Shown: one piece after another, positions 5,211-51,816 of the stretch | Layout of the letters: every line of letters begins with the position of its first letter | How positions within the stretch are numbered: position 1 is the first letter of the stretch | Origin: Tubiluchus corallicola | Taxonomy: Eukaryota > Animalia > Priapulida | Direction: 5' to 3' | DNA: 64,000 nt | Assembly (NCBI GenBank): GCA_030141605.1 | Contig: JAQGDQ010000702.1 | Span: forward strand, 1-64,000 | Made by a program: the position numbers and the translations under genes | Notes under the pieces: model-generated | What the model was told of the DNA's origin: nothing | Databases searched by the model: none | Seen by the model: the letters and a program-made list of their open reading frames with translations, nothing else

Positions 5211-5682
5211 ACGACACAACAAGCACACACGGTATGAAAACACTTAACTCTGCTTCAGATAAATCAGTCAAACAGGATATAACATGCACATTAATCGTCA
5301 AGAACACCAGCTTTCAGTTTTGTTACAAAAGGATGAGAATACAACATGTAGAGGCTTTGTAGGCCTAGTGATCTATGTATTTCATGTTTGCATTGTGATG
5401 TAAAAGCTACTGGTATTTTCAAGGCACGCAAATACGTGAAACATAGTTAAGGGTAAAAAAAAACAATAACTATTCCAAAAGTTAAATAAAAATTTAAAAA
5501 TAATAAGAAATAAATCGGAAAATCTTAAAACGGTGTAGCAAACGCAGACTCACAATATGATTTTGATTACAATATCACTTTTGCCTCTAATTTCTCAGTT
5601 TGCTGTTTTCAGTAATTTGACATTCAATATTATCGATGTACAGCTTAATATAAATAAACGCTGGAAGTTGTTTTTAGTAATT

Positions 5683-6070
5683 AACATCAATTATTAGAGG
5701 CTTATTTTACAAGCTCATTATACATTAAGTTAAAATTATCAAACAATTTTTGTAATTTGTACATTAATAACAAATTTTACATAGACAGGTTTAAAAACCG
5801 AATTTAAAATTATTTAAAAATCACAACAAAAAAGGAATAATAAATAAATTTTACTTTATATTAGGACATAGGTCAGTAAACATCAATTATTAGAGGCTTA
5901 TTTTATAAGCACAATATACATTAAGTTAAAATTATCAAACAATTTTTGTAATTTGTACATTAATAACAAATTTTACACACACAGGTTTAAAAACCGAATT
6001 TAAAATTATTTAAAAATCACAACAAAAAAGGAATAATAAATAAATTTTACGTTATATTAGGACATAGGTC
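5683..6070. repeat. Tandem direct duplication of ~196 bp
   Basis: AACATCAATTATTAGAGGCTTATTTT...TTAGGACATAGGTCA occurs at 5683-5875 and again at 5879-6070 with few substitutions. Confidence 0.93.
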
Positions 6071-6167
6071 ATGTTTTATAGGCCACACATTAAATAGTTA
6101 GTACTAGGTAGTACGTTAGTACAAACTGTTTTTAGTTGCAGAACAAACAATTTTGAGAAGGCTTCGG

Positions 6168-8006
6168 TTACCGATCAAACGGGAAAATGTTGAAGCTTCC
6201 TAACATCTCCCGAGGTCCATAGTCGCCCATGAACTTTCTTAGTGGATCGTTATTGCTAACTGGCTGCTCTACTGTAAATATATTTGGTACGTCAAATGCT
6301 AAGCCATATCCTCTAGGTACGTTACCAACTGAATAATGTTCAACTTTTGGTTTGGTGTATTTTACTCGAGTTTTCTGGGCACGCTCCAAGTACTTCACAG
6401 CTGGCCCTTTAAATGCGGGTGGATGGTAGTCGTTGGGAGGGCGGGGTACTGTTGTTGGAGGCGAAGCTCTTAATTTGAACCCTTCTGATTTGTCTTGAAG
6501 CCCTGAATATGGTCCTGAATCAGGACTACCATAAGCAGGAACTGCGTACCGGTTACTGGTCTCGTGCCTAGGCGATGTAGAATGGGGTACGTGAATTTCA
6601 TCATTAACCTGTTCATTTCCAAGAACATGAGCTTGAAGAGGTGCATTTGGTTTTGGTGGAGAACGTCCACGACTTTCCTTCACACTTACAGCTACTGAAG
6701 ATGGTATCTTATTTGCTGACGGTCCAGAAGGCGCAGAATTTCTCACCGGCAATGAACGTTCAATTCCAGTACCTGCAGGTTGTACGTAGCTTATTCCTAA
6801 TGGAGGATCCTGAGGATGTGCTGGTCGTTGCGGAGGACCTGGAGGACTTCTATATTGCTGGTATGGCATTGTCGGTTGCACCATGGGAACTGTTGGAGCT
6901 TGTGGACGGTTTGCTACAACATAAGGTGGTTGTCGAACCATCGGCCTCTGTGCCGGACTTGCATAAATTACACCGGGCGGTTGCTGGTTTGTTGGTCGAC
7001 CTGGCAGATTTGAAGGTGCTAGTCCCGATTGTTGTCGATTAACAGGTATTTGCAAATGATTTGGATGCGGCACTCTCGGTTGCAATGGAGGTGCTGTTAG
7101 TGGAGGAGACCGATTGATGGGGACGCTGGGTGGTTGCTGGTTTGTTGGTCGACCTGACAGATTTGGTGGAGGCGGTCTTGATGGCTGTTGATTTACAGGT
7201 ATTCGCAGATGATTTGGATGCCCCACCCCTGGTTGCGATGGAACTGCTGTTAGTGGTGAGTGCTGAATATTTCTCCCTGACACTGGAGGTTGGTGAGGTG
7301 GAAATGCAAACTGTTCTGGGTGTTTAACAGCTCTTGCTGGTGGGACTGAGCTTCTAGGGGGGTAACGAGAGCCATACCTGGGAGGAGGATACCTTGCCTT
7401 TGTCGGTGGATGCAGTGATCGTGGTGGTGCATGTGTATTTATCATAGGATGTCCTAATTTAGGTTGCTCTGGCTTCCCTTTTACTGGTATCGCCACTTTA
7501 GTTTTTGGCGGACTGTTCATTGATGACGGTGCTGTTTGCACTCTAGGGTTCTTTATACCAGGTTTTGGTGTTGGTGGTCTACCATTTACCTGTGCTGGTA
7601 AAGGCCCGCTAGGATAATAATTTCCAGATGGCGTTCCGTAGCCACCAACTCCTATACCTCCATCTCCATAGTAAGCACCGCCACGTGCAACTTTGTTCAC
7701 TTTCTGGTGATCAACGCGAGCATTATCTCCTATGTTCCTGTTGTAAGCTTTACCTCGATGGATACCGCCTTGTTCACGCGAGGTGTAGCCTCCCGAAAGT
7801 CCAATGCCATAGTTCTTATGGCCAAACCTATTATCTAGAATAATAGCCTTGTCCTCATTTATGTAAGCGTTATCTTGTCCGAATTCTTCTTTGAAACCAG
7901 TGTTAAAAGATTTCACATATCCACGTGGTTGATAAGCTTGGGCGTACATGTAACCTCTGGTATGATAAGGTACGTCTTGATGCAGATATCCATGGCCCAT
8001 ATACGT
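6168..8006 (-). CDS. Terminal coding exon A: conserved Tyr/Gly/Asn-rich domain plus long Pro-rich tail (secreted structural-type protein, unnamed family)
   Basis: 612-codon open frame; acceptor ctttctttatatttcag|ACG TAT ATG (AG at 8008-8007), phase 0; contains AYQPRGYVKSFNTGFKEEFGQDNAY and GAYYGDGGIGVGGYG shared with the three paralogous exons. Confidence 0.9.
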   Translation of the reverse strand, partial: TYMGHGYLHQDVPYHTRGYMYAQAYQPRGYVKSFNTGFKEEFGQDNAYINEDKAIILDNRFGHKNYGIGLSGGYTSREQGGIHRGKAYNRNIGDNARVDHQKVNKVARGGAYYGDGGIGVGGYGTPSGNYYPSGPLPAQVNGRPPTPKPGIKNPRVQTAPSSMNSPPKTKVAIPVKGKPEQPKLGHPMINTHAPPRSLHPPTKARYPPPRYGSRYPPRSSVPPARAVKHPEQFAFPPHQPPVSGRNIQHSPLTAVPSQPGVGHPNHLRIPVNQQPSRPPPPNLSGRPTNQQPPSVPINRSPPLTAPPLQPRVPHPNHLQIPVNRQQSGLAPSNLPGRPTNQQPPGVIYASPAQRPMVRQPPYVVANRPQAPTVPMVQPTMPYQQYRSPPGPPQRPAHPQDPPLGISYVQPAGTGIERSLPVRNSAPSGPSANKIPSSVAVSVKESRGRSPPKPNAPLQAHVLGNEQVNDEIHVPHSTSPRHETSNRYAVPAYGSPDSGPYSGLQDKSEGFKLRASPPTTVPRPPNDYHPPAFKGPAVKYLERAQKTRVKYTKPKVEHYSVGNVPRGYGLAFDVPNIFTVEQPVSNNDPLRKFMGDYGPREMLGSFNIFPFDR

Positions 8007-10589
8007 CTGAAATATAAAGAAAGAGATTTACAAAAACTTACTTCCTAATGTACAATTAATTTTTAAAACACAAAGCAATTCAGATTACTTTATGGATTAC
8101 TTTATGTTTGTCATCCTACACTAGTTTGATTTACCTATTTTTTCAAGAAAGGTCTTACATACAAATAGTCGTTTATAGTATACAAGAAAGCAGTAGTATG
8201 TAAGTATGTATATTATGTAAGTATGTATGTATAGTATGTAAGCAAGAAACTCTTCCTGTAAACTTTCTAAAAAAACACATATATATCACATTCATGCACA
8301 CATTACCATAGTATCAAGGTAGAAGCATTTCACTTTCATTACGTTATCCAATCTGATTACGTAGCCCCAGAATCTCATTAGAATAACAAGTCATTGTAAT
8401 CATTAACAGAATTGTATATCTATGTACAAAATTTATAGCTAGTTTATACCTAAAACTAGTTTTATCAACTAGCACAGATACGCATTATAATAGACAACGA
8501 AGCAAAAAGAAAAGTGGAAATCAGAAAAACTTAGTCGCACCTTTTCTAAAACGTTTTCACATTCTTACCAAACCAACGACAGCGAGACTGACCGACTGAC
8601 TGACTGACTGTGACGCTCACGGTGATGATACTAACAAATACAGTAAAACACTAACAACATTAGCCACGAACATGAATGATCAAACTGACAAGACACAACC
8701 TATAAACAACAAACAAACAAACAAAGATGAGATCAGACTGAAATAGAGAGTAGTGTAGACGTTTACTTGTGGGTACGTCACGTGACAAATGACGTTTCAG
8801 TCATTAATAACGCGATGTCCTTGTAAGTAAACATCCACACTACTCGAAATCACATCAGAGTTACAGTTATTAAATACGCCATTTTTACAATCATCTATTA
8901 CAAACTAAAGTATCTGAAATGAAACATTACTTGATGGAGCTTTATATGCTTCATTTTTGAAGAGAAATAAATCAAAAACCATGAAAACCCAAAGTGATTT
9001 TACATTCCTGCTTTTGGCAGACATGCTTCCATGTACTGGAGGGGGATTTATACACAGTAAAATTTTGAACACATCAGTTGGTGTTAGTCTCAACGCCTGG
9101 AAAGTAGGCGTTCAATCAGGAGATGGTCAGAGAAGCTGTGATCGCTTAAAGGCCCGAGGCAGGAGCCAAAATGTTACAATTAGGGCAAACTGCTCAGTCG
9201 CTCATGAAAAACCGCACTGGACGAGACATAGTCAAGCGATAATAGTCACAAGCGCTCAGCACAGTGGTTAGTCACATATGACAAAACTACATTGCACCTG
9301 GCACAGTCAAATGATAAACATGAGTTGATGTTTGTGGTTGTTCATGGATTTGGATATGAATTCATTTATTATGTCAAGTGAGAAATGCTGTCATGCTCGC
9401 GGATTTGAATCAGAATGCCATTCAGTCTTGTTTAAATGTACCTCAAAGATACCTAAAGAATAAAAATAAGTGGCCTTTAATGCAGCGTGTTTTAGATATC
9501 TTAGCAACATTCGCATGAATATTCTTTAAAGACATTCACGCGGTTATGCTATCACACGTGCAAAACAATGGGAAAAATGTTCAAAATGTCATTTGTAAAT
9601 GCTTATCCAACTTTTATTTTGCTATTTTAAAAGCATGTTTAATGTTCCTACTTCCATCTTGCACGCACAGTTATTGCTACGATTCCCCTGACAGCAAGCA
9701 CACGAAAAATAGGCGCACTTTCATACCTGCGTTTTCTACGGGAAACTCATTTTATCTTTATCGAGGCATATTCTTTCCGGCCATTGTGTTTTTGCATTGC
9801 TGGCTTGCGAAGTAACTCTATAATACTGTCTATTTCGCCTTGAAGCTATTCTCCTTGTCCGTGTAATAAGTTTTTTAGCCAGTTTTTATAATGTGACGTC
9901 AAACGATTCTATAGCAATGATAAACAGCGTCCTTAATCGAAGAAGAAACGAATTAAATAACCGGAAATAATGGACTTTTAAATGACATATTTAGTTTTTT
10001 CTGCCCAATCGGCTGGATTTGTTGTTTAGAACTCCATTATTCATGTCATGAATTCGCTTTTTCCTGGATGTCCCATTTAGAACACCGTTATCAATTCTGT
10101 AGAATCCGTTTTAGCGGAAAAATTTGGGACTAGTTCTAATAAAAATAAAAATATGCCAAAAATTTTTAAAGAATGGATATGAATATTGTCTTTTATTTAA
10201 ATTGTGGGTATTTAAAAAAACATAAAGTAATCAAAATTATAATGAGTTAATATGAGGCAGTGGTTAATGAAAGTAAAAACAAAAAAGAAATATTAATGTT
10301 AAACTAGCAGAACTTTGAATAACATTGGCGAATGTTAGAATACTAGACATCAGTTAATGGAAAAATGAATGAACTGTTTGAAGAATTAATAAATTAACGT
10401 CTGTTACATACATTGTAAATATAAATAAATAGCATGAATGATGAATAATTAATGCATAGGCCCACTTTATAACACGAAAATAAATATAATACTGAGGAAT
10501 TATTTTGATTTAGTATTCCCGCCAGTCACGGCTTTCCCTGAATAAATGCAGTGTAGATTATTCATTGCACTTTGTACAGCATAAACTCG

Positions 10590-12296
10590 TTAATTGTTCA
10601 TTCCACTCACCATGGTGGAAACTGGTACCAACAAACGACTAATATAACCAGTCACAGTTATGTCCTTATCGTGTTGATTAAATCCTTTATTATTTTTCTG
10701 CAACTCTTTTCGATGATTTTCATATTTTGGATCTTCTACACTTTCTTCATCGGAGTGGAACACATTCTTCTGCACACTTTCCTTGTTTTCGTTTTGTAAT
10801 ACCTGCTCATCATTCTCTTTAATTTCTATTTGAAACGCGTTCTCATTTTCCTGGAATTGTCTCTTACTTGATTCGTGTTTTGGTCTATCCAGATTTTGCT
10901 TAGGATTTTGAATGTCGCCTTCATTTTCCTGGTTTTGCTCTTTGTAATTGTTCTCATGTTTTCTGTCTTTTACGGTCTCTTTATCAGAGTGTTGAAATTT
11001 GCCTTGCGGTTGTTCTTGATTGCCTTTAGTTGGAGACTCGTCCATGTTTTCCTTGTCAGCGTGTTGAAGTTCGTCTGTCAGTTGTTCTTGATTCTTTTCA
11101 TTTGGAAACTCTTCCACGTTTTCTTTGTCAGTGTGTTGAAGTTCGTCTGTCAGTTGTTCTTGATTCTTTTCATTTGGAAACTCTTCCATATTTTCTTTGT
11201 CAGCATGCTGAAGTCCGTCTTTCAGTTGTTCATGATTGTCTTCATGATATGTTTGTTGTGTTACCGCCTCCTCTTCAGAATACTGATTTCTTTGTCCGTT
11301 TCCCTGGTGCAGTTCTTCCTTTAGTTCTGTGTTTTCCTTGCCAGTCTGTCCAAGCTGAACTTTACTATGCTGCTGTTGCTCTTTCTCTGCAAAGTTTTCT
11401 GCCCCTACCATGCCTTCCACTTCCGTTTCTTCTTCGTTACCAATATTACCAGTATTCTCTTCTTCAAGCTCAAATATAATTCTATCAAAATCGTTATCGT
11501 TTTCTTCTAAATGCACTACACGTTCATAAACTCTAGCTTCAGCAACCAGAGGCCTGTTGTAACCAACAACTGACAAAGGAGTGCGAGATGGTTTAGTCTG
11601 ATGAGTCCTCACTTTCAAAGGCATCGGCATACTGTAAACACTCGGTGAAACACCTTTGCTGTAAATTGATGACGGCTGTGTCGCCTGTTGTGATTTTGTG
11701 TCTACGTTTCGTGGACTGAGGTCGGTAAGTTTTGGATTTTCGTAACCAGCAGAGAGTGCTCCACTACCAGCTTGAATTCTCCTGGATGGTGATGTTGGGT
11801 CAAAACCGCCGTTGTGTATTCCATGACTGCCATATCTACCACCATGTGCGGGATACGCAGTACTAGTTCTGGTAACAGGAACGGCAAGATTACCATGTCC
11901 ACCAGCGCGATTGCTATAACCACCATTACCATAACCACCGTAACCAATTCCTCCATCACCGTAATAAGCTCCACCAGTTTGCTGCTTACCGTGGTATTGT
12001 TTTCTAGCTTGTCCCAAGTCGCCATAGTTTGTATTGTAAGCTCTATCACGACGGATATCACCATAAGCATTGTTGGCGTATCCGTTGGACAAACCGTAAC
12101 CACTGTTGTATTGCTGGAATCGATTATCCAAAATATTGGCTCTGTCTCTATTGTAGTATGCATTGTTTTGACCAAAGCCTTCTTTAAATCCAGTGTTAAA
12201 TGACTTCACATATCCACGAGGCTGATAAGCTTGGGCGTAGGAGTAGCCATTCAAAATGTGTCCCCCTCCTCCTCCACTACTGGTTACTTTGCAAAC
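10590..12296 (-). CDS. Terminal coding exon B: conserved domain plus Ser/Pro linker and acidic Glu/Gln/Asn-rich repeat tail
   Basis: 568-codon open frame; acceptor tgttgtatgtgtag|GTT TGC AAA GTA ACC AGT (VCKVTSSGGGGGHILNGYSYAQAYQPRG), phase 0; AATAAA on minus strand at 10192-10197. Confidence 0.9.
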   Translation of the reverse strand, partial: VCKVTSSGGGGGHILNGYSYAQAYQPRGYVKSFNTGFKEGFGQNNAYYNRDRANILDNRFQQYNSGYGLSNGYANNAYGDIRRDRAYNTNYGDLGQARKQYHGKQQTGGAYYGDGGIGYGGYGNGGYSNRAGGHGNLAVPVTRTSTAYPAHGGRYGSHGIHNGGFDPTSPSRRIQAGSGALSAGYENPKLTDLSPRNVDTKSQQATQPSSIYSKGVSPSVYSMPMPLKVRTHQTKPSRTPLSVVGYNRPLVAEARVYERVVHLEENDNDFDRIIFELEEENTGNIGNEEETEVEGMVGAENFAEKEQQQHSKVQLGQTGKENTELKEELHQGNGQRNQYSEEEAVTQQTYHEDNHEQLKDGLQHADKENMEEFPNEKNQEQLTDELQHTDKENVEEFPNEKNQEQLTDELQHADKENMDESPTKGNQEQPQGKFQHSDKETVKDRKHENNYKEQNQENEGDIQNPKQNLDRPKHESSKRQFQENENAFQIEIKENDEQVLQNENKESVQKNVFHSDEESVEDPKYENHRKELQKNNKGFNQHDKDITVTGYISRLLVPVSTMVSGMNN

Positions 12297-14691
12297 CTAC
12301 ACATACAACAAAATCTAACAACAACTAGACATTCAGGACAAGACGCTATTAACAAACATTTACTACAATTTACCACGAACATCAAACGATTCACCCAACA
12401 AGACAGATTTAAGCTTACTCAACAACTGTTGAACATAACTATTAATTAACAGCGTTCAGTAATAAAGAATTTTTAATCCACGTTTTGAAAGGCCAAAATC
12501 CAAAACTAACTGTGGCTTAGTTGCTGTAATCATCTTTTTCTTCGAGGAAGTGTAGTAAAGCAATAAGTTGCAGTGCAGCAGTTGCATCTGAATTTTTGTT
12601 AATTACAACCGCACATAGTTGTTGTCATAACCCCCCCCCCCCCCTTATGCGTGTCAGCTTATTTTGTAGCTGCCGCCATGTTTTCTGCTCACTCTCTTAC
12701 TTGCCTTCTGTTTCAGGCGCTCTGTTTAATCTTGCTGTTGCAGTTGCGCTGCAAGTCATAATCTTGTAATAAATTTCACAATATACATCCCACGTTTCTA
12801 CAAGATAGCTTGAAATCCAGATATAGCTTTAAGACTACTTAGGGTGAATCAACTAGAAGACCAAAATCCCTTGGTTTGTCGTAACAGTAAGTTCGAAGAT
12901 TTCGTTGCTTGATCTTTGTTAGTTTTTGATGATGGGAATACTGCATGCAGGACGAGGAATTTACCAAATCGGTTGATACGTGAAAACTTCAATGAATTTG
13001 TGTAAATTCTTCTAATTTTCTTCTGAAAATTTGGAAATAACTCATTTTCCATTGATCACAAAAGCAAAACGTTTCAATGAATCAGTGCTGTTTGATTAAA
13101 GTGTAGAAGCAGTAATGTTGTGTAAAGTGTTGCAGTTGATTACCAACAGAACCACCACCTACAGCAAGAAATCATTAAACAACTTTGTTAAAACTATGCG
13201 CTTAAAATGTTTATTGTAAAAACAACAACAACAACGACAACAAAAATGCAAAAAATGTCAAACTTAACAGATTAATATTTGCCAAATAATTATTATAACA
13301 ATTTTCTATCAGGCTTTCAGGTCCTTTTAGAAGAGAGAGAATTTTGTAAGATGTCTGGGCCCGTGTGAGAGTACCTTCAATGGTAATTAAGATGGAACCA
13401 GGTTACACAACATAGTGCATAATGTCATGTACTCAAAGGAATGCAGTTGTCAGCTTTGATGGTTTGTAACAGAAGTTTGAAAAACTAAACGTAAGATAAT
13501 ACAGAACACAATTAATTCTAAATCTAGTAACAAAAAGTAACAAAAAGACGATAAGAAACAATGACGAGTGCACACTGACTTGATACAGCACATCTACAAA
13601 TACAATGCAAAAACACTTCCATAAAACAATGTTCTTAAAGGCAACATTACGGAACAAACATACGCACTAGCACAACCAGCAAATAGTGCTTATAAAAGGC
13701 ATGACGTTGAGACAAACAAAAAAAACACCCCTAACAAACACAGACAAATTGTTTACGAATATATAAAAGCACAAATGACGTTATACAAAATACTTACAGG
13801 AATGACAATGTTGCAAGCTAGCACAAAAAGGATTAAGTGACAGTGGAATTAAAGTACAGATTTCTTATTTAAAAACCTCGTATTTACATATAGTATAAAT
13901 CGCAACCGTGCTGTTACGGGAATCTATATAGGGAGATCACAGATACGCTATTTAACACAATCTTACAATACAAACACTATAGTACAATACGTTACAATAC
14001 AATATAAACAGTCTACACACACGCGCGCGAACTCGTACAAACACAAAAACGTATATCGTAATAGAAAACTATATACAAAACTAATACAGCTACGAACAAC
14101 TAAACTACGTTCAAACTTTGGTAGACTCTTACAAAATATTTGCAGCTTGCAGTGACAAAACGTAATACAAATTACACGTGTACTTGTACAACACTACATA
14201 TGATATACTAACAGGAATACACAGTTCACAAGCACAAGAGACAGTTTTCACAGTTCGACTACCAAACATTGTTGACAGAGTAAAAACACATTAGTACACG
14301 TTTTTACAAATGACAGAAGTACTTACATTAATTAACACGCGACAACGTCAAATTACCAACAACAAACTACTTTATGTAGCAAGTACATAAAATTCAACAC
14401 TAAACATTTAAATATCGTACAACTTTTCACAAAGAACAACATGAGAACAACGTACAGACAACATACACAGAGCATACAAATAACATACAGGCAGCGTACA
14501 AAAAATACATACAAATATTTGCGTGATGGCAAGCCAATTTGTATTTGGATAACAAAACAAAACAAAACAAATTACAACACTAAAACTAATCACCCAGGAA
14601 ATGCCCACGGCTGGCATAATACAAACACCTTATTATGATTTTGGTGCCAATAATTAGACCAGGAGGTTCATTAGGAGTTGAAAGAGATTGT

Positions 14692-15132
14692 TTATTTTCC
14701 ATATCCACCACCGCCACCGCCACCGCCGAAACCACCATATCCACCGCCGTAGCCACCGTATCCAATTCCTCCATCGCCATAGTAAGCTCCGCCGGTTTGC
14801 TGCTTGCCGTGGTATTGTTTCCTTGCTTGTGCCAAGTCGCCATAGTTTGTATTATAAGCTCTGTCACGATGGATATCACCATAAGCATTGTTGGCGTATC
14901 CGTTGGACAATCCGTAACCATTGTTGTATTGCTGGAATCGGTTATCCAAAATATTGGCATTGTCACGATTGTAGTACGCATTGTTTTGACCGAAGTCTTC
15001 CTTGAATCCAGTGTTAAATGATTTCACGTATCCACGGGGCTGATACGCTTGGGCGTAGGAGTAGCCATTTAAAAGATGTCCAGCTCCTCCTCCACTGATT
15101 CCGCCAAACGCAGCACTGAATACTTTCGTTAC
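14692..15132 (-). CDS. Terminal coding exon C: conserved domain plus short poly-Gly tail ending GGYGK
   Basis: Acceptor tctgttattatag|GTA ACG AAA GTA TTC AGT (VTKVFSAAFGGISGGGAGHLLNGYSYAQAYQPRG), phase 0; the in-frame TAG of the acceptor means an intron is obligatory; domain nearly identical to exon B. Confidence 0.9.
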   Translation of the reverse strand, partial: VTKVFSAAFGGISGGGAGHLLNGYSYAQAYQPRGYVKSFNTGFKEDFGQNNAYYNRDNANILDNRFQQYNNGYGLSNGYANNAYGDIHRDRAYNTNYGDLAQARKQYHGKQQTGGAYYGDGGIGYGGYGGGYGGFGGGGGGGGYGK

Positions 15133-16456
15133 CTATAATAACAGACGTAGAGACAATGACGACAAACAGACACGTGAAATGTCACGAAAAACACAAAACA
15201 GAAGTTGACACAAAAAACAATGTTAATCACCAAGAAAAAATGAAAATTCAGTATAAGAATTACAGAATCTTTCACACGAAAACAGTGATTTTATACAAGT
15301 CAGTAACAGTGAACGCAATGCAATTACACCAGTTAGAAACACATTTGAAGTATAGAAGCCAATAAGTGATTAGATATTCTGTTGAATTTCTCCAAAGTAC
15401 ACTGCCCTTGGTTCTTTCCTATGCGTTTCCATTTTATATTTCCCAGAAAATGTTTCTGTCGCGTAACTTCAATCAACCATGCAATTTCATGTGGTGTTTG
15501 TATGTCACTTATTTTGCTTAATAGTTTGATAACCTTTGCTTAAATGCCATGGCACTGTTTGGTATTTTTATCGGTTTCGCGTTTTTGCATGTTTTTTGGG
15601 AAGGTAACTTTCAGGGAAATAACGCTTCCATCCTGCCTTATCTCGCGTCTAGCCTTGATGATCCCCCATTAAAGATGTGTGGACAGTTTTGAAACTATTG
15701 GTTGCCATAAGCAGACATGCTTACAGCATAGCAATTTATTTTACAGTATTAACAAGCAGAATTTTTGTGTCGATGTATATTGTCAATGCAACACATACTT
15801 ATTCAACGCATTATTGCATCTGTTGTTTTTATTAGAACTACCATAGTTTGAACTGCCTCGCAGCGTACAACCGTGAGAGGTGCTGCTCTTTAGGGTAAGT
15901 CTGGTACGACCATTCGCTTTCCAAACAGACAAAGACACAACACGTATTATAGACATCAACTCATAACAGATACTATACCAGGCACAAAAGTGAAAAAAAT
16001 GCAACAAGAGTAGTGTAGATGAGTCTACAAAGGACACAGCACGTAGGAAAGACGAACGACATGCATTAGCAACACACGTATTACTAGAAATTTCTTTACG
16101 ATTTAGCCAAGATCTTTTGTGATATCGTCAGAACTTTCCATGTCAAGACTGCAACGTCTCATTGTATCCCATCTGGAAATGAACTTGGTGATCTAATGAG
16201 GATGCATTTTCCATGTGAAAATTTTACGCCAAGCTCTAGCGTTATACTGAGCAAAGACCTCATAAAATCCTCCTATTGTATGACGTATTAGCTGTCATGG
16301 TACAAAAACGTAAAAATTCACAATAAACAGGTTCGTTACGATGATTATGCACAAAGTAAATTTAAAAATGATAGACTTTACAGTTGGACATTTCGACATT
16401 TCGACTGTTTAAAAGAAAACAGGATGATTTTCGTATTCTAGTCTATTATGAAGTAC

Positions 16457-16928
16457 AGCCTAGCCACTGGGGGGGGGGGGGCAAGCCAGCCCAACTCAGT
16501 GCCGGTCCCAAGCCCGGATAAATAGGGAGGGTTAGGGTCAGGAAGGGCATCCGCCTGTAACAACTGCGCCAAAACCTTCTATGAATGAGTCGCTTAAATG
16601 TAAAGGTCAGATCCGCTCTAATCTATGGGCTGGAAGCAGCTTCTCTAAAGAAGACCGAAGAGAAGAAAATGGGTGTGGTGGAGATGAGGATGTTGAGATG
16701 AATGGTGGGTATAACAAGAAGAGATAAAATTAGAAATAATAATATCAGAGGAACAGTAAAAGTAGTGGAAGCCTCGCAAGATTGCGATGGTATGGCCACC
16801 TGAAAAGAAGAGTCGGTGAAGATCTTGTGGGAAGGGAAGACATAAATGAAGAGATGGTCAACAACAGGAATGCGTGGAGAAGACTCATTCAAAACGAATA
16901 GGGAAAAGCTGGGAAGAAGAAGAAGAAG
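16457..16928 (+). mobile_element. Internally deleted non-autonomous RTE-clade retroelement with target-site duplication
   Basis: TSD AGTCTATTAT(G/T)AAGTAC at 16440-16456 and 16929-16945; RTE-like 5' part (GGTCCCAAGCCCGGATAAA...GGAAGGGCATCC), ORF remnant YGLEAASLKKTEEKKMGVVEMRMLR*MVGITRRDKIRN, (GAA)n tail. Confidence 0.85.
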
Positions 16929-17410
16929 AGTCTATTATTAAGTACGATAAATGCATTTACATCTAGCATACATCTTAACACCTATAATAATGCCAAGTTA
17001 AAACATTATTAGTAATCGTCATCAGTATCTATCTAACGAGGAAATAGCAAAATGCATGTAATAAGGAAGAATTCGAAAGAAGGTCTTATAATCAGGAAGG
17101 TTTCTGTAGTTTTAATTCTTTTACGTAAGTCATTCATGAAAAAATATATATTTCCTCTCAGAGTTTTATAAGTTAAATTGTTTTGAGCAATATTTAAGAC
17201 TAGCCTGGGTTTTCCTTTGAAACAATGTGCCTAATGACGACCAATACGCATGATTTATGGATAAGTTGGATGCTTCAGATGAAATCGGCAACAATGGCAT
17301 AACGGAGGACCGTTACTCTGTTAGGAACCGATTACGAAATCAGAAGAATAAAAAACAAAGCATTTTCATGATTCTTGTTATCGTTTTTTTTTGTTACCAG
17401 TTTCATTTAA

Positions 17411-17872
17411 CCCTTTCATACCCGTTGTATCCCGTGGGATACGAGAACTTTTTCTGCATTTAAAATTAATAACATTCTAAAACTGACAGTTATTTGATCA
17501 GTTAATAGTTATTTTGATTTAAGCCAATAACAATAGACTTAAAACGGTGATAAAATGGCAAACTAGAAAATCTACATAGCATAAAAAACTGTGCAAGGTA
17601 CAGTAGTCTAGAGACGACTTTGTACAGATCAGCATAGCATGCTTACTAAATGTCTTAAATACTTTAAAAAATTATCAGCAGTTGCAATATGAAGCACATT
17701 TTATGCTTCCATTGAATCCCAATGTATCCCGTGGGATGCAGGATATATTTACCACACGGGCACAGGTAGAAAAAAATAATTATTATGTGTAAACAAGATG
17801 GACATACTGAACAAAAGTACCAAGCCAAAAAAGCGTTTTTCTTATTAAAAAAATAATTTGGGACTGAAAGGG
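17411..17872. mobile_element. piggyBac-type MITE
   Basis: TTAA|CCCTTTCA...TGAAAGGG|TTAA termini; related copy in opposite orientation at 50856-51149. Confidence 0.8.
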
Positions 17873-20097
17873 TTAACTACATGGCCACTAAGAAGTGCAA
17901 ATTTTCTTAATGTAATTCGAGAATATGGTTACTGATATCTTGTTTATGCTGAAGTCTAATTCTGTCTGAGGATGGTTTTAGTTTTCGGCTACAATTTCCT
18001 CAACGTTACCGCACAGTTTGCTGTAAGAAATGTGCCACTCGAGTAATAAAATTTTAATTCGTGAAAACTGTCGTCACGTTAAGATGATAATAATAATTTG
18101 AAAGTACAACTCCTGTAAATAATGTGGCAAAATTAAGTAAATCCATCCTGTAAATTTTGGGAAATTGAGAGGTGAAGGCTGGAAAGTTTTACTCTCAGGT
18201 TTGTAAACTCAACACATTTAAACTGTAAACCAATCTGTGATTCCCTTTCTGCCCCACGTTGCACGAACATTCTCGATTTCCAACACAGATTTTCAGTTTA
18301 AATACAATGAGCTGTAGCAATTCGCATAGTGAAAGTTTCCAGGCCTCATCATCCTCAGATAGATTTTTCCAGATAATTTAGGCTTCCAAACTTATTGTAA
18401 CTTATAACATGAGATTTCTCATGACTAGCATACATGAACTAGTCGACTGCAGGTGTTGGCGATTCGTAAAAAGGAGCTTATGTTTCTTAAATGATAATTT
18501 TAGTTTTTTGTGTGGAAAATAGACATCATTCAACAGATCATTGACCAACAACAGTAACAGTTTATTCAACGTTTAGATTAACAACAGATTATATGGCTCA
18601 TTAGTTGTGACATTAATGAATCAATAAATGTTTGGGCTATATTTTGAGGGTGCTACAGGGTGCTACAGGTGCTACAGGTGCCACCTAAACGTGATGAAAC
18701 TATAAGTGACCTTAATAACAGCAGTAATTGGTGAGGTTTGAAATTACAGTAGGTAGATCATAGATATGAGACACCTGTACAACAGCAAGGACGATTACAA
18801 AAAAACACTAATTACAGTATTTACATATATACAACACTTGCTACTTAAATTACGCTAATAGCGTGATAGATTTTGATACATGCTAAAACTTACTGAAACT
18901 TGTCTTAATTGTATTAACGTAGTAAATGATTCGTTTGATCTGCTTAAGTAATGTTTTGCTGATAATATACAAAAACAAAGCTTTAACCATCTATTGCCTT
19001 GGCTGCAGTTAACACAAAACAGGAAACAGGACACACGCTTTTTACAAAAAACAATTTACAATTTGGCACAACGTAAACAACACAAACACATAATAAAACC
19101 TGAAAATTCACATAAGGTAAAATAACAAAACAAACGCAGGTATTACACAACAAGAACAATGAACAATACAACTCAAAACGCGACAATACACGCACGATCA
19201 TTAATGACATAACATTAATACTGTTAACAACACTTGACATACAAAACACATATCACAAATACATAGTACGAACATAAAAACATGTTGAACAACTAATAAT
19301 TGCACAAACTTAAACGAGATCACAGTGCGCTGTTATGCGAAAATTATCAAAAATCAGTATAAATTAAGCAGGTGCTGTCATCTGTTGGTGGAAAGCTATA
19401 CTAAATAAACGACTTGTCAGAAATATGTTACGCTAAGATAAAATTAAAAGCAATTTAGGCCGCATAATTTCAGTTGCACAAAGATAGTGAGTAGTAGCTA
19501 ATCTGAAGGAAATGAAAATATGTCTATATACTTGTCGTTAAACTATCCCTAATTACACTTCTAGTTTTTCAATATGAAAAATGTTAAAAATGGCCTGATA
19601 ATATATATTGGCTACTCCCTAAATGTTTTCTTTACGAAAATATCACAGCTGGGTAAAATGAGGTAGTTTATTAACTTTGGTTTCCTCGCGTTAATATTAG
19701 GGTGCGTAGTAGATTAACATTCCTCAAGTATTTGTCTCTTTATACCTGTTTTGTGACTCTTTGGCTTAGAATTTTGAGCTAACATCTGACTTAATTTATT
19801 TCTTCCGTCATTCTTTGGCAAATCGACATTAAAAACTAACACGTGCGACGTAACACTGTATACTAAGTACAAACACAGATAGTACATGTAACGTATATGG
19901 AAACAAAACGTAAGTCATACGTAAGCACTAACATAATGCCTGTTGTACAGAATGCCCTAAGGAGGAGCTGCATTGTGTATGGAAATGCGTCATAATTGTT
20001 TTCGTAACGTGCCCAAGATGGCTTGAAATAAGTTAAAATGGTGGTGACGTGATGCTAACAATAAACATGGAGACGCAATTTTTATAGCGTTGCTGCT

Positions 20098-20583
20098 TTA
20101 GCGTCCGTATCCACCTCCATGTCCGCCACCCCCATAACCTCCTCCTACATGTCCGCCACCCCCATAACCTCCTCCTCCATGACCGCCGCCATAACCTCCT
20201 CCTCCGTAACCTCCAGCGGCCACGGGTCCTGGTCCCACACCGCCGTACAGGCCTCCATAGTAGATGCCATGCTTCCCATGTCTAGCTTGATAGTGTCCTA
20301 AATGCTTGGCTTGATCTCCATAATTCTTATTGTAGGCAAGGTCTCGGTGCAGTTTGCCCTCGTTGTTGTACTTGTGGCCGTAGCCGACTCCGTAACCGTT
20401 GTTGAGGTAGTTGTTGACGTTGTAGGCGTTCAGGGCGTTGTCACGGTTGTAGTAGGCGTTGTTCTGCCCGAAATCTTCGTGAAAGCCCGTGTTGAAGCTC
20501 TTGACGTAGCCACGAGGTTGATAAGCGTGAGAATACTTGAAACCACCAATGCCAAAAGCTTGCGACGAGATAGCTCGATGCAC
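20098..20583 (-). CDS. Terminal coding exon D: conserved domain plus Gly/Tyr/His-rich tail (GGGYGGGGH repeats) ending GGYGR
   Basis: Acceptor ttgctgtttag|GTG CAT CGA GCT (VHRAISSQAFG), phase 0, consensus branch point CACTAAC ~30 nt upstream; joins the 22540-22587 leader to give a 177-aa precursor MQPITLVTTTVVILASVHRAISS-QAFG...; AATAAA (minus) at 19795-19800. Confidence 0.92.
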   Translation of the reverse strand: MHRAISSQAFGIGGFKYSHAYQPRGYVKSFNTGFHEDFGQNNAYYNRDNALNAYNVNNYLNNGYGVGYGHKYNNEGKLHRDLAYNKNYGDQAKHLGHYQARHGKHGIYYGGLYGGVGPGPVAAGGYGGGGYGGGHGGGGYGGGGHVGGGYGGGGHGGGYGR

Positions 20584-22539
20584 CTAAACAGCAAGCAAAG
20601 CAAAGCAAGCAAATGTTAGTGTAAGCAAGCAAGCAAACAAGTAAGCAAGCAAAATATTTACAGCAACTTATAAGGAAGCAAGAAAGCAAAAAATTTAGAA
20701 AAAATGTAAAGTAAGGTTTGATTACAAGCAAATCAGCGTTAAACCAAAAGCATTGTTCACTAAGAAACAATAACAGTATTAAGCAATGCAAGCAATAAGT
20801 AAAATTTATGCTAATTTCTAAGCCCACTGTACTTTCTAAGTACAAGTGTATTAAAATTCAGTTAGTTCTGTAGGTTAACTCAGCAAAAAGGCAAAAAACA
20901 AGTACTAAATTGACGTACTATGAGAGTTTTGCTAAATGAAAGTTGAAGTCAAATGGGCCTAGAACACACTCTTGTTGAACTTTGTACGAAATAACTTATT
21001 CAAAACAAACAAAATTTTTAATCAGTTATGCGAAACAAAGTGCTAAGCATGGAGCGAGGTAAGCAAAGCGAATTTTATGCCAAAACACTGAGAATTAGCT
21101 CTAGGAAAGCTTGTTTTTACACAGCAAAGCATAAAAAGCAGCAATCATACGAGCAAAATATAGGCACCGTGGTCGCAACTTATCCGTGTAGTAAATCATC
21201 AGGATCAATGCGATGACAACAGTTTTGGTAATTGTAGTGGGTTTTTTGCCTTTATTTAACAAAATTAACCGAGCTTTTCGATGACTTCTCTCGAGAAGGT
21301 CTTGCGTACATCCTTGTCACGTTTTTAAGAATAATTTCGAAAATTTTCGCTGATTTTCTCGAGCGATTTGCTATAAACTGTTGTAAAATCTGCCCTGTTT
21401 TTATTGTACAATGACTCACAGTCCATTGCCAACTTGAGACACACAACTTACTCAGTACCTGACAGTTTACTCATTATACTTCATGCGAGTGTTTCGCAGA
21501 GGACTCATTATAATCTGGCATTTACACCAATACTAGGAGTATGAATTGACAAAAAAGAGAACGAAGTAGTCATTAGCTCTAAATTAACTTTTAATGTAAT
21601 TTAATGTTTGCAAATACATATAGCTCAATTTCTTCTTTCTATGATTAAACAGTTTGTTTATTTTTGCTGTTGTTGTTATTATTATTATGTCCTCTTTGTC
21701 ATTCGGGCGTAAATAAAATTTCTATACTTGAAAACGTACACGAGTAAGTAACTAATCATTATTTTACTTGCAGGTCAGTTATATTCTTGTCAATGGTCTG
21801 TTTTTGCTGTACCTGGCCTTGTAATTGTGACTATAATTTTGCAGCCTACATTGACTTTTTGTTCTCACAATACCATAAAATAATTTTAAACCATAAATTG
21901 TTTTCTAGAAAAAAACATAGTACAGCGTTGACATATATGAGTTTAAAATTAAGTTCAAACTTTTATCAACGCCATTTTGTATTTAAGGCATTGTCATGTA
22001 CAATCACTTTGGCTTTTAGGCATTGTCATGTACTATCGCTTTGGCTTTTGTTCCTAATATCCTAGTTACTCAGAATAAAGAAAGAACAATTCCTAACTTT
22101 ATTGTTAAATGCAAATCTTAAGACTCATTATGAAGGTAGTAAAGCGTTGTTTTATAAAGTTTGGGTAAACAGTATGAACCCGATTCTGGCTGGTCGAGTT
22201 TAGACGGGTACATGTCGGACTGGGTTGGGTAGAGCATAGGTCTTAACGCGCAGGTCTCTACTGCACAACTGAACTGTGAAATCATCGGTTCCAATTTAAC
22301 GTCGTACAATAAATACATGATTGACTGAACCATCGACTCGGATAGAAGGCATATAGGTGCTAAATCGTCTGTTATGCTAATTGATAATCGCTCTCACAGT
22401 GAGAAATGGTGACGATTATGACACGGTAACTGAACTTATTATGTCCCTGAATGAAGTGTTGCATCAAATCCGATTAATTCATTATCTTACAATTAAAATT
22501 CTATGCAATTAACATGATTAATCACAAAAATCAACTTAC

Positions 22540-22587
22540 CGAAGCCAAAATGACAACGGTCGTCGTCACTAACGTGATTGGCTGCAT
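22540..22587 (-). CDS. Leader exon encoding the first 16 aa of a signal peptide (MQPITLVTTTVVILAS); exon spans 22540-22593
   Basis: tttacag|GCAACA ATG CAG CCA ATC ACG TTA GTG ACG ACG ACC GTT GTC ATT TTG GCT TCG|gtaagt: canonical acceptor, ACAATG start context, perfect phase-0 donor; too short to appear in the ORF track. Confidence 0.85.
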
Positions 22588-23217
22588 TGTTGCCTGTAAA
22601 TTAAAAAGATAATTATTAATCATTAGGAACTAATTTTTTCCTGCATCAGATTCTACACAAAATGCAGCTGCGGAACTCTTTGCAGAATGCAGAGGCTAAT
22701 TGTCAATCTATTCAAAAATGATTTGATCAGAATTTGCTGCAAAACTTTTGTAAAGCTTTGTAAACTCCTGAAGCTTTATAACAAAGTACATTGAAAGAGC
22801 ATTTTATAGATTTGAAAAAAAAGCTAAGCTAAGATTCCTACTAACTTTGGCATAGGAGTCTTTCTATAACTGATGCATTTTCTGCGACTTTATTTCAGAA
22901 CAGTGAATAATTATAACAAATATCCAATTTTTTACTTTCACTTTTTAGGGCAACGAAATCACTATTTCACACAGGTGGTCAGTCACCTGGGTGACCTCGA
23001 TTCGCTCCATTTACCTGCCCTAGACTACGTGCTTAGAAAGCAAATAGTGTGAATCCACATTCTGTGTTGTTACACCTGTAATTTTAAACTTTTTTTATGA
23101 CAGGTAATTAACTTAACATGATGGTTTAAACATAATTTATTATAGGATTGGATCAGACAGTTTGAACAACATGATTTAGGATCCTCACCACAACAGACTT
23201 TATACACTATTTACAAG

Positions 23218-24253
23218 AACATTTACAGTAAGAATAGACTATAACTACACAAGCTGACAAGTTTTACTACAAGATTACATTAGACATTAGTAACATTTAC
23301 AGTAAGAATAGACTATAACTACACAAGCTGACAAGTTTTACTACAAGATTACATTAGACATTAGTAACATTTACAGTAAGAATAGACTATAACTACACAA
23401 GCTGACAAGTTTTACTACAAGATTACATTAGACATTAGTAACATTTACAGTAAGAATAGACTATAACTACACAAGCTGACAAGTTTTACTACAAGATTAC
23501 ATTAGACATTAGTAACATTTACAGTAAGAATAGACTATAACTACACAAGCTGACAAGTTTTACTACAAGATTACATTAGACATTAGTAACATTTACAGTA
23601 AGAATAGACTATAACTACACAAGCTGACAAGTTTTACTACAAGATTACATTAGACATTAGTAACATTTACAGTAAGAATAGACTATAACTACACAAGCTG
23701 ACAAGTTTTACTACAAGATTACATTAGACATTAGTAACATTTACAGTAAGAATAGACTATAACTACACAAGCTGACAAGTTTTACTACAAGATTACATTA
23801 GACATTAGTAACATTTACAGTAAGAATAGACTATAACTACACAAGCTGACAAGTTTTACTACAAGATTACATTAGACATTAGTAACATTTACAGTAAGAA
23901 TAGACTATAACTACACAAGCTGACAAGTTTTACTACAAGATTACATTAGACATTAGTAACATTTACAGTAAGAATAGACTATAACTACACAAGCTGACAA
24001 GTTTTACTACAAGATTACATTAGACATTAGTAACATTTACAGTAAGAATAGACTATAACTACACAAGCTGACAAGTTTTACTACAAGATTACATTAGACA
24101 TTAGTAACATTTACAGTAAGAATAGACTATAACTAAACAAGCTGACAAGTTTTACTACAAGATTACATTAGACATTAGTAACATTTACAGTAAGAATAGA
24201 CTATAACTACACAAGCTGACAAGTTTTACTACAAGATTACATTAGACATTAGT
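23218..24253. repeat. 74-bp minisatellite, 14 near-identical copies, derived from a LINE 3' UTR
   Basis: Unit AACATTTACAGTAAGAATAGACTATAACTACACAAGCTGACAAGTTTTACTACAAGATTACATTAGACATTAGT; reverse complement of most of the unit is seen at 63948-64000. Confidence 0.97.
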
Positions 24254-24513
24254 AGAAAATGACGGTTAGAAAATATTAATGTACGAACATTTAAGACTGA
24301 TGCATTTCATATCAGATAGAAACTACTGGAAGCGTTTAGTACGTAATATAAAGTAATGTATGCATTGGAATATTTTACAGTTAGCAACATAGTTAAATTC
24401 ATCTTTTCCGAATAATAACAACTTCAACAGATCATTATTTCCTAAGGCAGTTATATTAAGGTTTTCGGGCAGAAGTATTTCATTTAATTTATCAAACATA
24501 ACAATCCTAGCTA
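24254..24513 (-). mobile_element. LINE 3' fragment (same family as 63670-64000)
   Basis: Reverse complement aligns by eye with 63690-63947 (e.g. GCATTGGAATATTTTACAGTTAGCAACATAGTTAAATTCATCTTTTCCGAATAATAACAACTTCAACAGATCATTA). Confidence 0.85.
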
Positions 24514-24877
24514 GTTGATGTTAACTTAACATGTTAAACCAAAAAAGTTGTCTTGTACATGCAGCTATAGATGCGTGTAGACGCAAAAACAAATTTACAG
24601 TGCTCCATTTTAGTATGTTCTCTACTGTGAATTTTAGAGACTAATGCTGTTTTACAGCAACATACTAGTATGCTACGCACTACGAAAACGTGCATTTCCT
24701 AAATTTTAATTTATATCCGTAGATAAAAAGATGAACAGCTATCTATTAATGATTTTGAAAAAACACTTGACAAACGCGAATTTATTAGATCTTTGTTCCA
24801 TAATGTTGAGCCATTTGCTATTCTGATTATGTTATACAGCATCTATTGTAATATAATTATATTATTTGGTAACTGCT

Positions 24878-25003
24878 AGCCTAACTGGACCCAATTTTAG
24901 CTTAACTGGGCCCGATTGTAGCATAACTGGACCCGATTGTAGCATAACTAGACCTGATTGTAGCATTACTTCACCCAATTGTAGCATAACTGGGCACAAT
25001 TGG
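24878..25003. repeat. Degenerate 21-bp tandem repeat, about 6 copies
   Basis: Unit approx. TAGCATAACTGGACCCGATTG. Confidence 0.85.
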
Positions 25004-25177
25004 CATCTAAACTTGCTTTTTCCGTACAGTCGATATCTAAGTTTAACTTTTAACTTTTTTATGCTCAATTGTACAATTAACTATTTTACATTTTACATAT
25101 AAATAAAACAGTGTATTAAAAATTTGACTTTCTTATTTTTTCTTATGTTAGACTTCGTTAGATGATTCCGCCCAAAA

Positions 25178-25378
25178 CTTTATAAATACAAACAAATAAA
25201 CAAATTGCTGGTTTGAGTTATAAACACAAACAAATAAACAAATTGCTGGTTTAACTTTATAAACACAAACAAATAAATAAATTGCTGGTTTGAGTTATAT
25301 ACACAAACAAATAAATAAATTGCTGGTTTGAGTTATATACGAAAACAAATAAATAAATTGCTGGTTTGAGTTATATAC
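25178..25378. repeat. ~39-bp tandem repeat, about 5 copies, abutting the first splice donor
   Basis: Unit approx. TTATAAACACAAACAAATAAA(C/T)AAATTGCTGGTTTGAG. Confidence 0.9.
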
Positions 25379-25382
25379 GCAC

Positions 25383-25454
25383 CTTTACTATGCTGATATA
25401 ATTGTTTTGTCCACCTCTGTCGTGTGCACACTTTAACAACCAAGCTCTTATACT
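25383..25454 (-). other. Predicted non-coding first exon of the minus-strand structural-protein locus
   Basis: Starts at the A of an Inr (caTTCAGTa, 25454); ends AAG|gtgcgt at 25383; the leader exon at 22593 has an acceptor just 6 nt before ATG and so requires an upstream exon. Confidence 0.6.
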
Positions 25455-25486
25455 GAATGCGATGTGTCAAGTTGAACGATTTTATA
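25452..25486 (-). promoter_or_regulatory. Core promoter: TATA box plus initiator
   Basis: TATAAAA beginning at 25486, 32 nt upstream of a TCAGT initiator (A at 25454), canonical spacing. Confidence 0.65.
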
Positions 25487-51149: not shown

Positions 51150-51329
51150 TTAATTGTTTGTTTGAGTGATCACAATGATTATATCCTAGTAACGTATAGC
51201 AGTATGTCAGCATATTCAGAGGCAGAGATTTGGTCATAAATACTACATTTTGCTACGACTAAATAATAACTAAACACTAGGTGGATTTTTACATTTCTGT
51301 CCAGTAAAAACCGGTTAAATTTTTTCCAG

Positions 51330-51563
51330 GAATATCTGGTGAGGTAGTAATAGACGATGAAGGTAGTCGAATTGCCGACTTTTCTTTACTTGATATGAAC
51401 GATATTGTCGACGGAACGTTTCGTGTTGTCGCAGAGTACTATGGCACTCGTCGAGTGTACCATCCGGCAACTCATAGCCATCCACACTGGCCTGCTGGCG
51501 CCCCTCCACTGGATGTGCCTCCTTGTGGGTTCAAGGGCACAAACCCTGAATGTCGCAAAAAAG
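51330..51563 (+). CDS. NPR-like receptor, coding exon 5 (end of ectodomain, juxtamembrane Cys pair)
   Basis: ttttccag|GA ATA...AAA G|gtgatt; GISGEVVIDDEGSRIADFSLLDM...HWPAGAPPLDVPPCGFKGTNPEC, the 'WP.G.PP.D.P.CGF' signature of NPR/receptor guanylyl cyclases. Confidence 0.92.
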
Positions 51564-51816
51564 GTGATTTTTTACTTTTTTTGCAGTGTATCATTAATAA
51601 CAATTTTTCATCATCTTCTTTTATTTAACAGAAGTTTCGCGCCACGCACATCATTCTCAATGTTAATGCTAATTAGTAACCCAAAAGTGTAACACTGTTA
51701 CTTTGTTTCAAAATGAACAGGCAGCTGTGCAGTGCCAGCTTCTTTATCACCGCCATTGCACTTTCTACTACAGAGCATCCTTGTCGTGAAATGTACAGCG
51801 TTTGTGATTTTTTCAG

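What the first reader, a model, noticed from the sequence alone, without database searches (positions are those of the whole stretch)
6168..25486. Candidate single gene with four mutually exclusive paralogous terminal exons sharing one promoter and one signal-peptide exon
Seen: exons D (20583), C (15132), B (12296) and A (8006) all open at a phase-0 acceptor and encode only the tail of a signal peptide (VHRAISS-, VTKVFS-, VCKVTS-, TYMGHG-). The 16-codon leader at 22540-22587 (MQPITLVTTTVVILAS, phase-0 GTAAGT donor) joins in frame to any of them and gives a plausible cleavable signal peptide each time. Each exon has its own stop; B, C and D have a downstream or overlapping AATAAA. I could not find an equally clean ATG-plus-hydrophobic-plus-donor exon in the intervals before C, B or A. 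Inference: one transcription unit makes four secreted proteins (about 177, 162, 584 and 628 aa) with a constant assembly domain and exchangeable tails by alternative last-exon choice, the mirror image of clustered protocadherin/UGT1 variable-first-exon loci. Annotation pipelines would likely split it into four leaderless genes.
Basis: partly seen in the sequence, partly recalled or inferred. Interest (0 to 1): 0.85.

Follow-up and report, generated by a model that had tools for sequence, protein, structure and literature searches.

The report
One leader, four structural-protein exons
An invertebrate gene region has one promoter-like site and one short exon for a predicted secretion signal, followed by four related intact exons that are likely spliced on one at a time (one likely also onto the next) to give several predicted secreted structural proteins with no known relatives; this layout is already known from insect genes, and no RNA confirms it here.

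Summary
On the minus strand a 16-codon hydrophobic leader (22587-22540) joins in frame to four paralogous exons, giving 177, 162, 584 and 628 aa. Their shared core of about 105 aa is under purifying selection (B/C dN/dS 0.08). There is one TATA+Inr and one phase-compatible leader, and the intervals before B and C share no homologous block. One gene with alternative 3' cassettes is the best reading (about 0.72). No RNA junction could be tested.

(1) B carries the region's only perfect donor (10611, phase 0, seven codons before its stop), and A lacks the signal-peptide tail of D, C and B. A may therefore be spliced behind B (1,190 aa), at about even odds. (2) A leader-like exon lies before A (8699-8621), but it is phase 2 and within chance.

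The layout is known: Locusta neuroparsin and Drosophila PGRP-LC, CG42235 and pip. Earlier unchecked notes of this scan report it for an octopus serpin and a sea urchin MCFD2 gene. The Gly/Tyr/Asn-rich protein family has no relatives in any search run; a cuticle or matrix role is inferred from composition only.

The parts
25480..25486 (-). TATA box (TATAAAA), with a TCAGT initiator about 30 nt downstream (25456-25452); putative sole promoter
   Evidence: 1 of 21 minus-strand TATA hits in 4-26 kb is followed by TCAGT; 3 TATA+TCA[GT]T pairs in the whole window, both strands; function inferred
25383..25454 (-). Exon 1, non-coding (about 72 nt, no ATG), donor AAG|GTGCGT
   Evidence: inferred from motifs
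22540..22593 (-). Exon 2: 6-nt UTR plus the 16-codon hydrophobic leader (ATG 22587), phase-0 GTAAGT donor; acceptor TTTACAG
20098..20583 (-). Cassette D: signal tail, core and Gly/Tyr/His-rich tail (161 codons; G 30%, Y 13%); AATAAA at 19800 and 19672
14692..15132 (-). Cassette C: signal tail, core and short Gly-rich tail (146 codons); AATAAA overlaps the stop (14696)
10590..12296 (-). Cassette B: signal tail, core and acidic Glu/Asn/Gln tail (net -33) with 72-nt repeats at 10978-11245; 568 codons; AATAAA at 10197
10605..10613 (-). Perfect phase-0 donor (ATG|GTGAGT) seven codons before B's stop; would join B to A (1,190 aa with the leader)
   Evidence: highest donor score in 6-25.7 kb; only G|GT[AG]AGT in 16,372 nt; unchanged in run X1; use inferred
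8621..8699 (-). Leader-like candidate exon (ATG 8673, MFVANVVSVLLYLLVSS, phase-2 donor); probably chance, rival private leader for A
   Evidence: 7-13% of local shuffles give such a candidate; no similarity to exon 2
6168..8006 (-). Cassette A: core and basic Pro-rich tail (P 21%, net +35) with a 153-nt duplicated unit; 612 codons; only variant poly(A) hexamers

Best explanation
The locus holds one leader exon and four intact paralogous exons, and it is likely one gene in which the leader is spliced to alternative 3' cassettes to give several predicted secreted, Gly/Tyr/Asn-rich proteins that likely build an extracellular matrix such as cuticle. Shown: the parts, their compatible phase and purifying selection on the cores. 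Inferred, step 1: transcription starts at the TATA/Inr near 25454. Step 2: the single donor at 22540 is joined to D, C or B, and cleavage at that cassette's poly(A) site ends the message. Distal cassettes would be reached by plain competition between acceptors and poly(A) sites, since no docking/selector pairing was found. Step 3: A is reached either directly (628 aa) or, at about even odds, behind B through the donor at 10611 (1,190 aa, two cores, an acidic block then a basic block). Step 4: the conserved Tyr-rich core would mediate co-assembly and tyrosine cross-linking, while the tails tune the material.
For: One TATA+TCAGT among 21 TATA hits. Outside one microsatellite, only two ATG+hydrophobic+GTRAG exons exist on either strand of 64 kb, and only 22587 is phase 0. 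All four acceptors are phase 0. D, C and B begin V-x-K/R-V/A-x-S, with a (-3,-1) cleavage site after residue 22; they carry no hydrophobic core of their own, so they need a leader of about 10 or more codons. Cores are under purifying selection: B/C dN 0.030, dS 0.37; C/A 0.26; B/A 0.22. B/C DNA similarity is confined to the exon (90% over 350 nt). The intervals before B and C share no block above shuffles (64.5 against a null maximum of 69), whereas a leader copy at 11% divergence scores 114-150. Exon 2 and exon 1 match no interval above shuffles. For B-to-A: the only G|GT[AG]AGT in 16,372 nt is in phase 0 at B's end; at the window's density of 20 in 128 kb about 0.005 would be expected there, reckoned after the fact. 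Precedent: PMC4237046 section 17 and PMC6191721.
Against: No RNA evidence of any junction. B's acceptor is mediocre (rank 85 of 887). Distal use needs bypass of D's good acceptor and two AATAAA sites, and no helping RNA structure was found (12, 3 and 2 of 20 shuffles matched the best duplexes). The leader scan demanded GTRAG donors, and weaker phase-0 candidates exist in every interval. The B/C negative loses power if private leaders diverged like the first six codons of B and C (12 of 18 nt identical): at 35% divergence a copy scores 32-74, overlapping background. A leader-like exon precedes A. Secretion rests on hydropathy and the (-3,-1) rule, not SignalP. The matrix function rests on composition alone, and the organism was not identified here.
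Confidence: 0.72

Rival explanations
1. A tandem cluster of separate genes: C and B (and A) have their own promoters and diverged leader exons that the scans missed, as in insect cuticular-protein clusters where an intron splits the signal peptide.
For: In Anopheles CPR clusters 86% of intron-bearing genes have a short first exon inside the signal peptide, and first exons are hard to annotate (PMC2259329 passages). Weak-donor hydrophobic ORFs exist in each interval. Gene conversion limited to the core could hide older, diverged leaders.
Against: No TATA+TCAGT and no phase-0 GTRAG leader in any of the three intervals. No homologous block between the intervals before B and C. D, C and B need a long leader, not a 1-4 codon one.
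Confidence: 0.13
2. D, C and B form one alternatively spliced gene, but A is a separate gene. It would use either the 8699-8621 exon (needing a 1-nt assembly error, or a weak phase-2 acceptor at 7956) or a bare ATG before the 10611 donor, which would give a non-secreted protein.
For: The 8699 acceptor ranks 4 of 887 and precedes a 17-codon hydrophobic ORF with a GTGAGC donor. A's start differs from D, C and B. The ATG at 10613 sits in a CCACCATG context.
Against: The donor is phase 2 and A's only strong acceptor is phase 0; 7956 scores -0.2 against 6.9. Such candidates arise in 7-13% of local shuffles. No similarity to exon 2. No TATA+TCAGT upstream. Run X1 did not cover 8572-8667, so an assembly error is untested.
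Confidence: 0.11
3. Only D is expressed; C, B and A are leaderless duplicated exons that are no longer used.
For: No RNA shows their use, and listed X1 differences in the A and B tails are mostly non-synonymous (11 of 16 sites).
Against: Open frames of 146, 568 and 612 codons; B/C dN/dS 0.08 at dS 0.37. No stop or frameshift among the X1 coding differences shown (40 of 170 substitution rows and 12 of 39 indel rows shown).
Confidence: 0.04

Closest known systems
Locusta neuroparsin gene (PMC4237046, section 17 read)
   Same: Secreted products; five mRNAs share the first coding exons and each adds its own last exon, giving related proteins.
   Different: Two coding exons are shared there and the products are Cys-rich neurohormones. 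Here only a 16-codon leader is constant, the whole mature protein is variable, and the tails differ about 10-fold in length and in charge.
Drosophila 3'-variable-cassette genes PGRP-LC, CG42235, pip (PMC6191721: abstract, passages and Discussion read)
   Same: Tandem duplicated 3' cassettes (3, 5-7 and 10) are spliced to a common upstream exon, coupled to poly(A) choice.
   Different: Those use validated docking/selector pairings, and none was found above shuffles here. The paper notes that simple scanning can suffice for 3' clusters. Their constant part is more than a signal peptide (recalled).
Arthropod low-complexity Gly/Tyr-rich cuticular proteins and CPR clusters (PMC2932725, PMC2259329, PMC2793513; passages)
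   Same: Signal peptide split by an intron, TATA+Inr promoter, tandem paralogs, conserved tyrosines, almost no Cys or Trp.
   Different: No R&R, GYR or YLP Pfam match. Those are separate genes, each with its own first exon.
Calcitonin/CGRP, mod(mdg4), lola, Or69a (recalled; one search found no paper on Or69a)
   Same: Common 5' exons with alternative, related 3' exons.

Membership tests
3'-variable-cassette genes (neuroparsin / PGRP-LC / pip type) | Tandem paralogous terminal cassettes, each phase-compatible with one upstream donor | tested here: met
3'-variable-cassette genes (neuroparsin / PGRP-LC / pip type) | Each cassette has its own stop and poly(A) signal | tested here: inconclusive
   Stops in all four; AATAAA for D, C and B, variants only for A; B also has an in-frame donor toward A
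3'-variable-cassette genes (neuroparsin / PGRP-LC / pip type) | No private promoter or first exon before the distal cassettes | tested here: inconclusive
   None found for C and B; one phase-incompatible candidate before A; limited power against diverged leaders
3'-variable-cassette genes (neuroparsin / PGRP-LC / pip type) | Transcripts join the common donor to more than one cassette | not testable with these tools
   No RNA holder listed; no joints at these sites in X1 or X2
Docking/selector-regulated 3' clusters (PGRP-LC) | One docking site complementary to selectors before the cassettes | tested here: not met
   Best duplexes matched by 12, 3 and 2 of 20 shuffles, and no site shared by the three best pairings; no second species for covariation
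Clustered protocadherin / UGT1 (variable first exons) | Many first exons with own promoters spliced to constant 3' exons | tested here: not met
   The layout is the reverse
CPR cuticular proteins | R&R chitin-binding consensus | tested here: not met
   No Pfam family at E<=0.1 for 4 of 4 exons; only sub-threshold rve_3 and SOXp for the cores
Low-complexity Gly/Tyr-rich cuticular or matrix proteins | Signal peptide with Gly/Tyr-rich, Cys-poor composition | tested here: met
   D and C: G 26-30%, Y 13%, no Cys or Trp; signal peptide by hydropathy and the (-3,-1) rule only
Low-complexity Gly/Tyr-rich cuticular or matrix proteins | Found in cuticle, or expressed by epidermis at the moult | not testable with these tools
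   No expression or proteome data

The most novel reading that the evidence does not exclude
One promoter encodes a whole kit of matrix proteins of a new family. Only the export leader is constant, and splice choice swaps the entire mature protein: two short Gly-rich forms, an acidic form (tail net -33), a basic Pro-rich form (tail net +35), and an optional 1,190-aa fusion of the last two. Splicing would then set the charge balance, and so the condensation and mechanics, of a secreted material such as a priapulid cuticle.
Probability: 0.22. Interest if true: 0.65.

Novelty: new variant of a known kind. Interest (0 to 1): 0.42.

Why it matters
If true, it extends 3'-variable-cassette splicing to an extreme case, where only the signal peptide is shared, and to an orphan family of likely structural proteins. 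It would show that a matrix-protein 'cluster' can be a single gene whose composition is set by splicing and poly(A) choice. It also warns that annotation would split such loci into leaderless genes missed by secretome screens. The architecture itself is known, so the surprise is moderate. One RT-PCR or long-read set would settle it.

Tried and rejected
No genome is held for this window, so other copies or a second species could not be examined.

RNA: no RNA holder was listed. X1 (kind not on record) covers introns and crosses D's acceptor and the 10611 donor unspliced, with no joint at any predicted site. X2 (guessed RNA) gave 4 short hits to Gly-rich or repeat stretches and none to the cores or the leader. 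Neither is evidence on expression. X1 contig depths are higher on the cassettes (17-124) than on most introns (about 3-13), and one contig ends at 19771, 24 nt past D's AATAAA. The tool states that contig depth cannot rank parts of a gene, so this was not used.

Homologs: none in the search for homologous proteins (80-256 aa only). One hit in 1.84 billion representatives, an unrelated Thr/Ser-rich repeat protein, was rejected. The Atlas gave only two arthropod hypothetical clusters at 0.77-0.78, and nothing among named clusters. PDB hits to Orf20 (E about 0.01) were treated as composition noise. Metagenomes: 0 of 86 pattern matches confirmed. A recalled likeness to DUF4779-type His-rich proteins found no Pfam support.

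Structure: AlphaFold mean pLDDT 38 from 4 sequences, uninformative; no fold search run. No internal repeat in the core (253 of 1000 shuffles).

Docking/selector: not above shuffles. The idea that B's end or the 8673 ORF is a relic of exon 2 is not supported. Two searches to place the taxon from the neighbouring receptor gene found nothing; 'priapulid' comes only from earlier unchecked notes. The bacterial promoter scan is irrelevant to this animal locus.

Literature: searches found no paper on a structural-protein gene with a shared signal exon and paralogous last exons (search listings only; the library lacks most subscription papers). Searches listed nothing on priapulid cuticle proteins. 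PMC12758981 passages gave only serpin splicing. No supplements were read.
Full report
Observation. The locus lies on the minus strand. The 16-codon leader 22587-22540 ends in a phase-0 GTAAGT donor and has a strong acceptor at 22593. Four AG acceptors (20583, 15132, 12296, 8006) are phase 0, and the joined frames are open at 177, 162, 584 and 628 aa. AATAAA follows D and B and overlaps C's stop; A has only variant hexamers. The four exons share a core of about 105 aa, 58-95% identical to C, and no fifth copy lies in the window.

Are the exons alive? Nei-Gojobori estimates on the core give B/C dN 0.030, dS 0.37 (ratio 0.08), C/A 0.26 and B/A 0.22. Pairs with D are at or near synonymous saturation, with dN 0.41-0.58. 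Run X1 differs from the window by a few percent. Of the differences shown (40 of 170 substitution rows, 12 of 39 indel rows), 16 fall in the A and B coding tails: 5 synonymous and 11 not. Two of the 11 lie in one codon; read singly one of them gives a stop, but together they give Glu (my reading). No listed indel falls in a cassette. So all four cores were kept under protein-level selection and need a start and, if secreted, a leader.

Where is the leader? Of 21 minus-strand TATA hits in 4-26 kb, only 25486 is followed by a TCAGT initiator. Such pairs occur 3 times in the window on both strands. An ATG-free exon of about 72 nt with a donor at 25383 follows. A scan for ATG + 10-26 codons + hydrophobic stretch + GTRAG donor over both strands returned one microsatellite, the known leader, and one candidate at 8673-8621. 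D, C and B open with V-x-K/R-V/A-x-S and give a (-3,-1) site after residue 22. They have no hydrophobic core of their own, so the very short first exons common in mosquito CPR clusters (PMC2259329 passages) would not suffice. B and C are 90% identical over 350 nt, but only inside the exon. Their upstream intervals share no block above shuffles (64.5; null maximum 69; 1 of 12 shuffles reached it), while a leader copy would score 114-150 at 11% divergence and 52-110 at 29%. The limits are real: at 35% divergence the copy scores 32-74 and would often be missed, the first six codons of B and C are about that diverged, and weaker-donor candidates exist in every interval. All splice scores are home-made.

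First, the highest-scoring donor in 6-25.7 kb is at 10611. It is the only G|GT[AG]AGT in the 16,372 nt between the leader donor and A's stop. It is in phase 0, seven codons before B's stop, and unchanged in X1 (0 differences in 10495-10750). Joining it to A gives an open 1,190-aa product. At the window's density of 20 such motifs in 128 kb, about 0.005 would be expected in phase within the last 30 nt of D, C or B; this was reckoned after seeing it. A is also the one exon without the signal-peptide tail. I put about even odds on A being reached through B, with or without a direct leader-A form. Second, the 8699-8621 candidate has a strong acceptor (rank 4 of 887) but a phase-2 donor. A's only strong acceptor is phase 0, and the phase-2 AG at 7956 scores -0.2 against 6.9. 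Local shuffles give such a candidate in 7-13% of trials, and it does not resemble exon 2. It is probably chance, but X1 does not cover it.

RNA. No RNA holder was listed, and the two laid runs showed no joint at a predicted site. This is no evidence either way. The central claim, that donor 22540 uses more than one acceptor, is therefore inferred.

Mechanism of choice. No docking site in the shared intron paired with the three intervals above shuffles (12, 3 and 2 of 20). [quoted passage not shown] I therefore favour plain competition between acceptors and poly(A) sites (inferred).

What the proteins are. No Pfam family and no credible homolog was found, and the model was uninformative (pLDDT 38). 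D and C are 26-30% Gly, 13% Tyr and 9-10% Asn, with no Cys or Trp. B adds a 433-aa acidic tail (net -33) with 24-aa repeats, and A a 477-aa Pro-rich basic tail (net +35). This composition, the split signal peptide and the TATA+Inr promoter resemble arthropod cuticular-protein genes (passages); PMC2932725 raises chitin binding and tyrosine cross-linking as possible roles of conserved tyrosines. Earlier unchecked notes call this genome a likely priapulid, and my two attempts to place it failed. A cuticle or other secreted matrix is the most likely role (inferred). The opposite charges of the A and B tails suggest co-condensation, as in tube-worm cement (recalled, untested).

Comparison and novelty. 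The layout works like Locusta neuroparsin (five mRNAs, shared first two coding exons, one specific last exon each) and like PGRP-LC, CG42235 and pip. Membership in that class is met for anatomy and untested for transcripts. It is not a protocadherin/UGT1-type locus and not a CPR. Earlier notes of this scan describe the same layout in an octopus serpin array and a sea urchin MCFD2 gene (not checked). What differs here is that only the leader is constant, the family is an orphan, the tails differ greatly, and one cassette may chain to the next. Five literature searches (listings only) found no structural-protein case, which is weak evidence given the library's gaps. Verdict: real features; one gene with 3' cassettes at about 0.72; a new variant of a known kind; interest 0.42.

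Noticed in passing
window:52426-56639 (+): Apparently intact LINE retrotransposon: ORF1 of 440 aa and ORF2 of 969 aa with endonuclease (PF03372) and reverse transcriptase (PF00078) domains, lying downstream of the receptor exons on the same strand.
   Followed up: partly
window:44936-45661 and 51308-51628 (+): Exons of a natriuretic-peptide-receptor-like gene (ANF_receptor PF01094, E 1e-15); assignment of the second exon is by eye only.
   Followed up: partly
window:30611-31979 (+): Small gene with a PAN-domain exon and a C-type lectin exon, divergent from the studied locus.
   Followed up: partly
window:1669-3991, 23218-24254, 25596-27519: Long, very homogeneous minisatellites flank and interrupt the locus: 28 nt x 83, 74 nt x 14 (in intron 1) and 43 nt x 45 directly upstream of the promoter.
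   Followed up: no
window:18900-20097, 13500-14691, 5300-6167 (-): U/G-rich stretches follow the cassette stops, strongest after C (T 44%); possibly long 3' UTRs or downstream poly(A) elements.
   Followed up: partly
window:5683-6071: A 196-nt tandem duplication (96-97% identical) just after A's stop doubles its variant poly(A) hexamers.
   Followed up: no
window:16166-17926: High-copy interspersed repeats in the interval between D and C (very high summed depth in X1); the 17475 ORF with a donor lies inside them.
   Followed up: no
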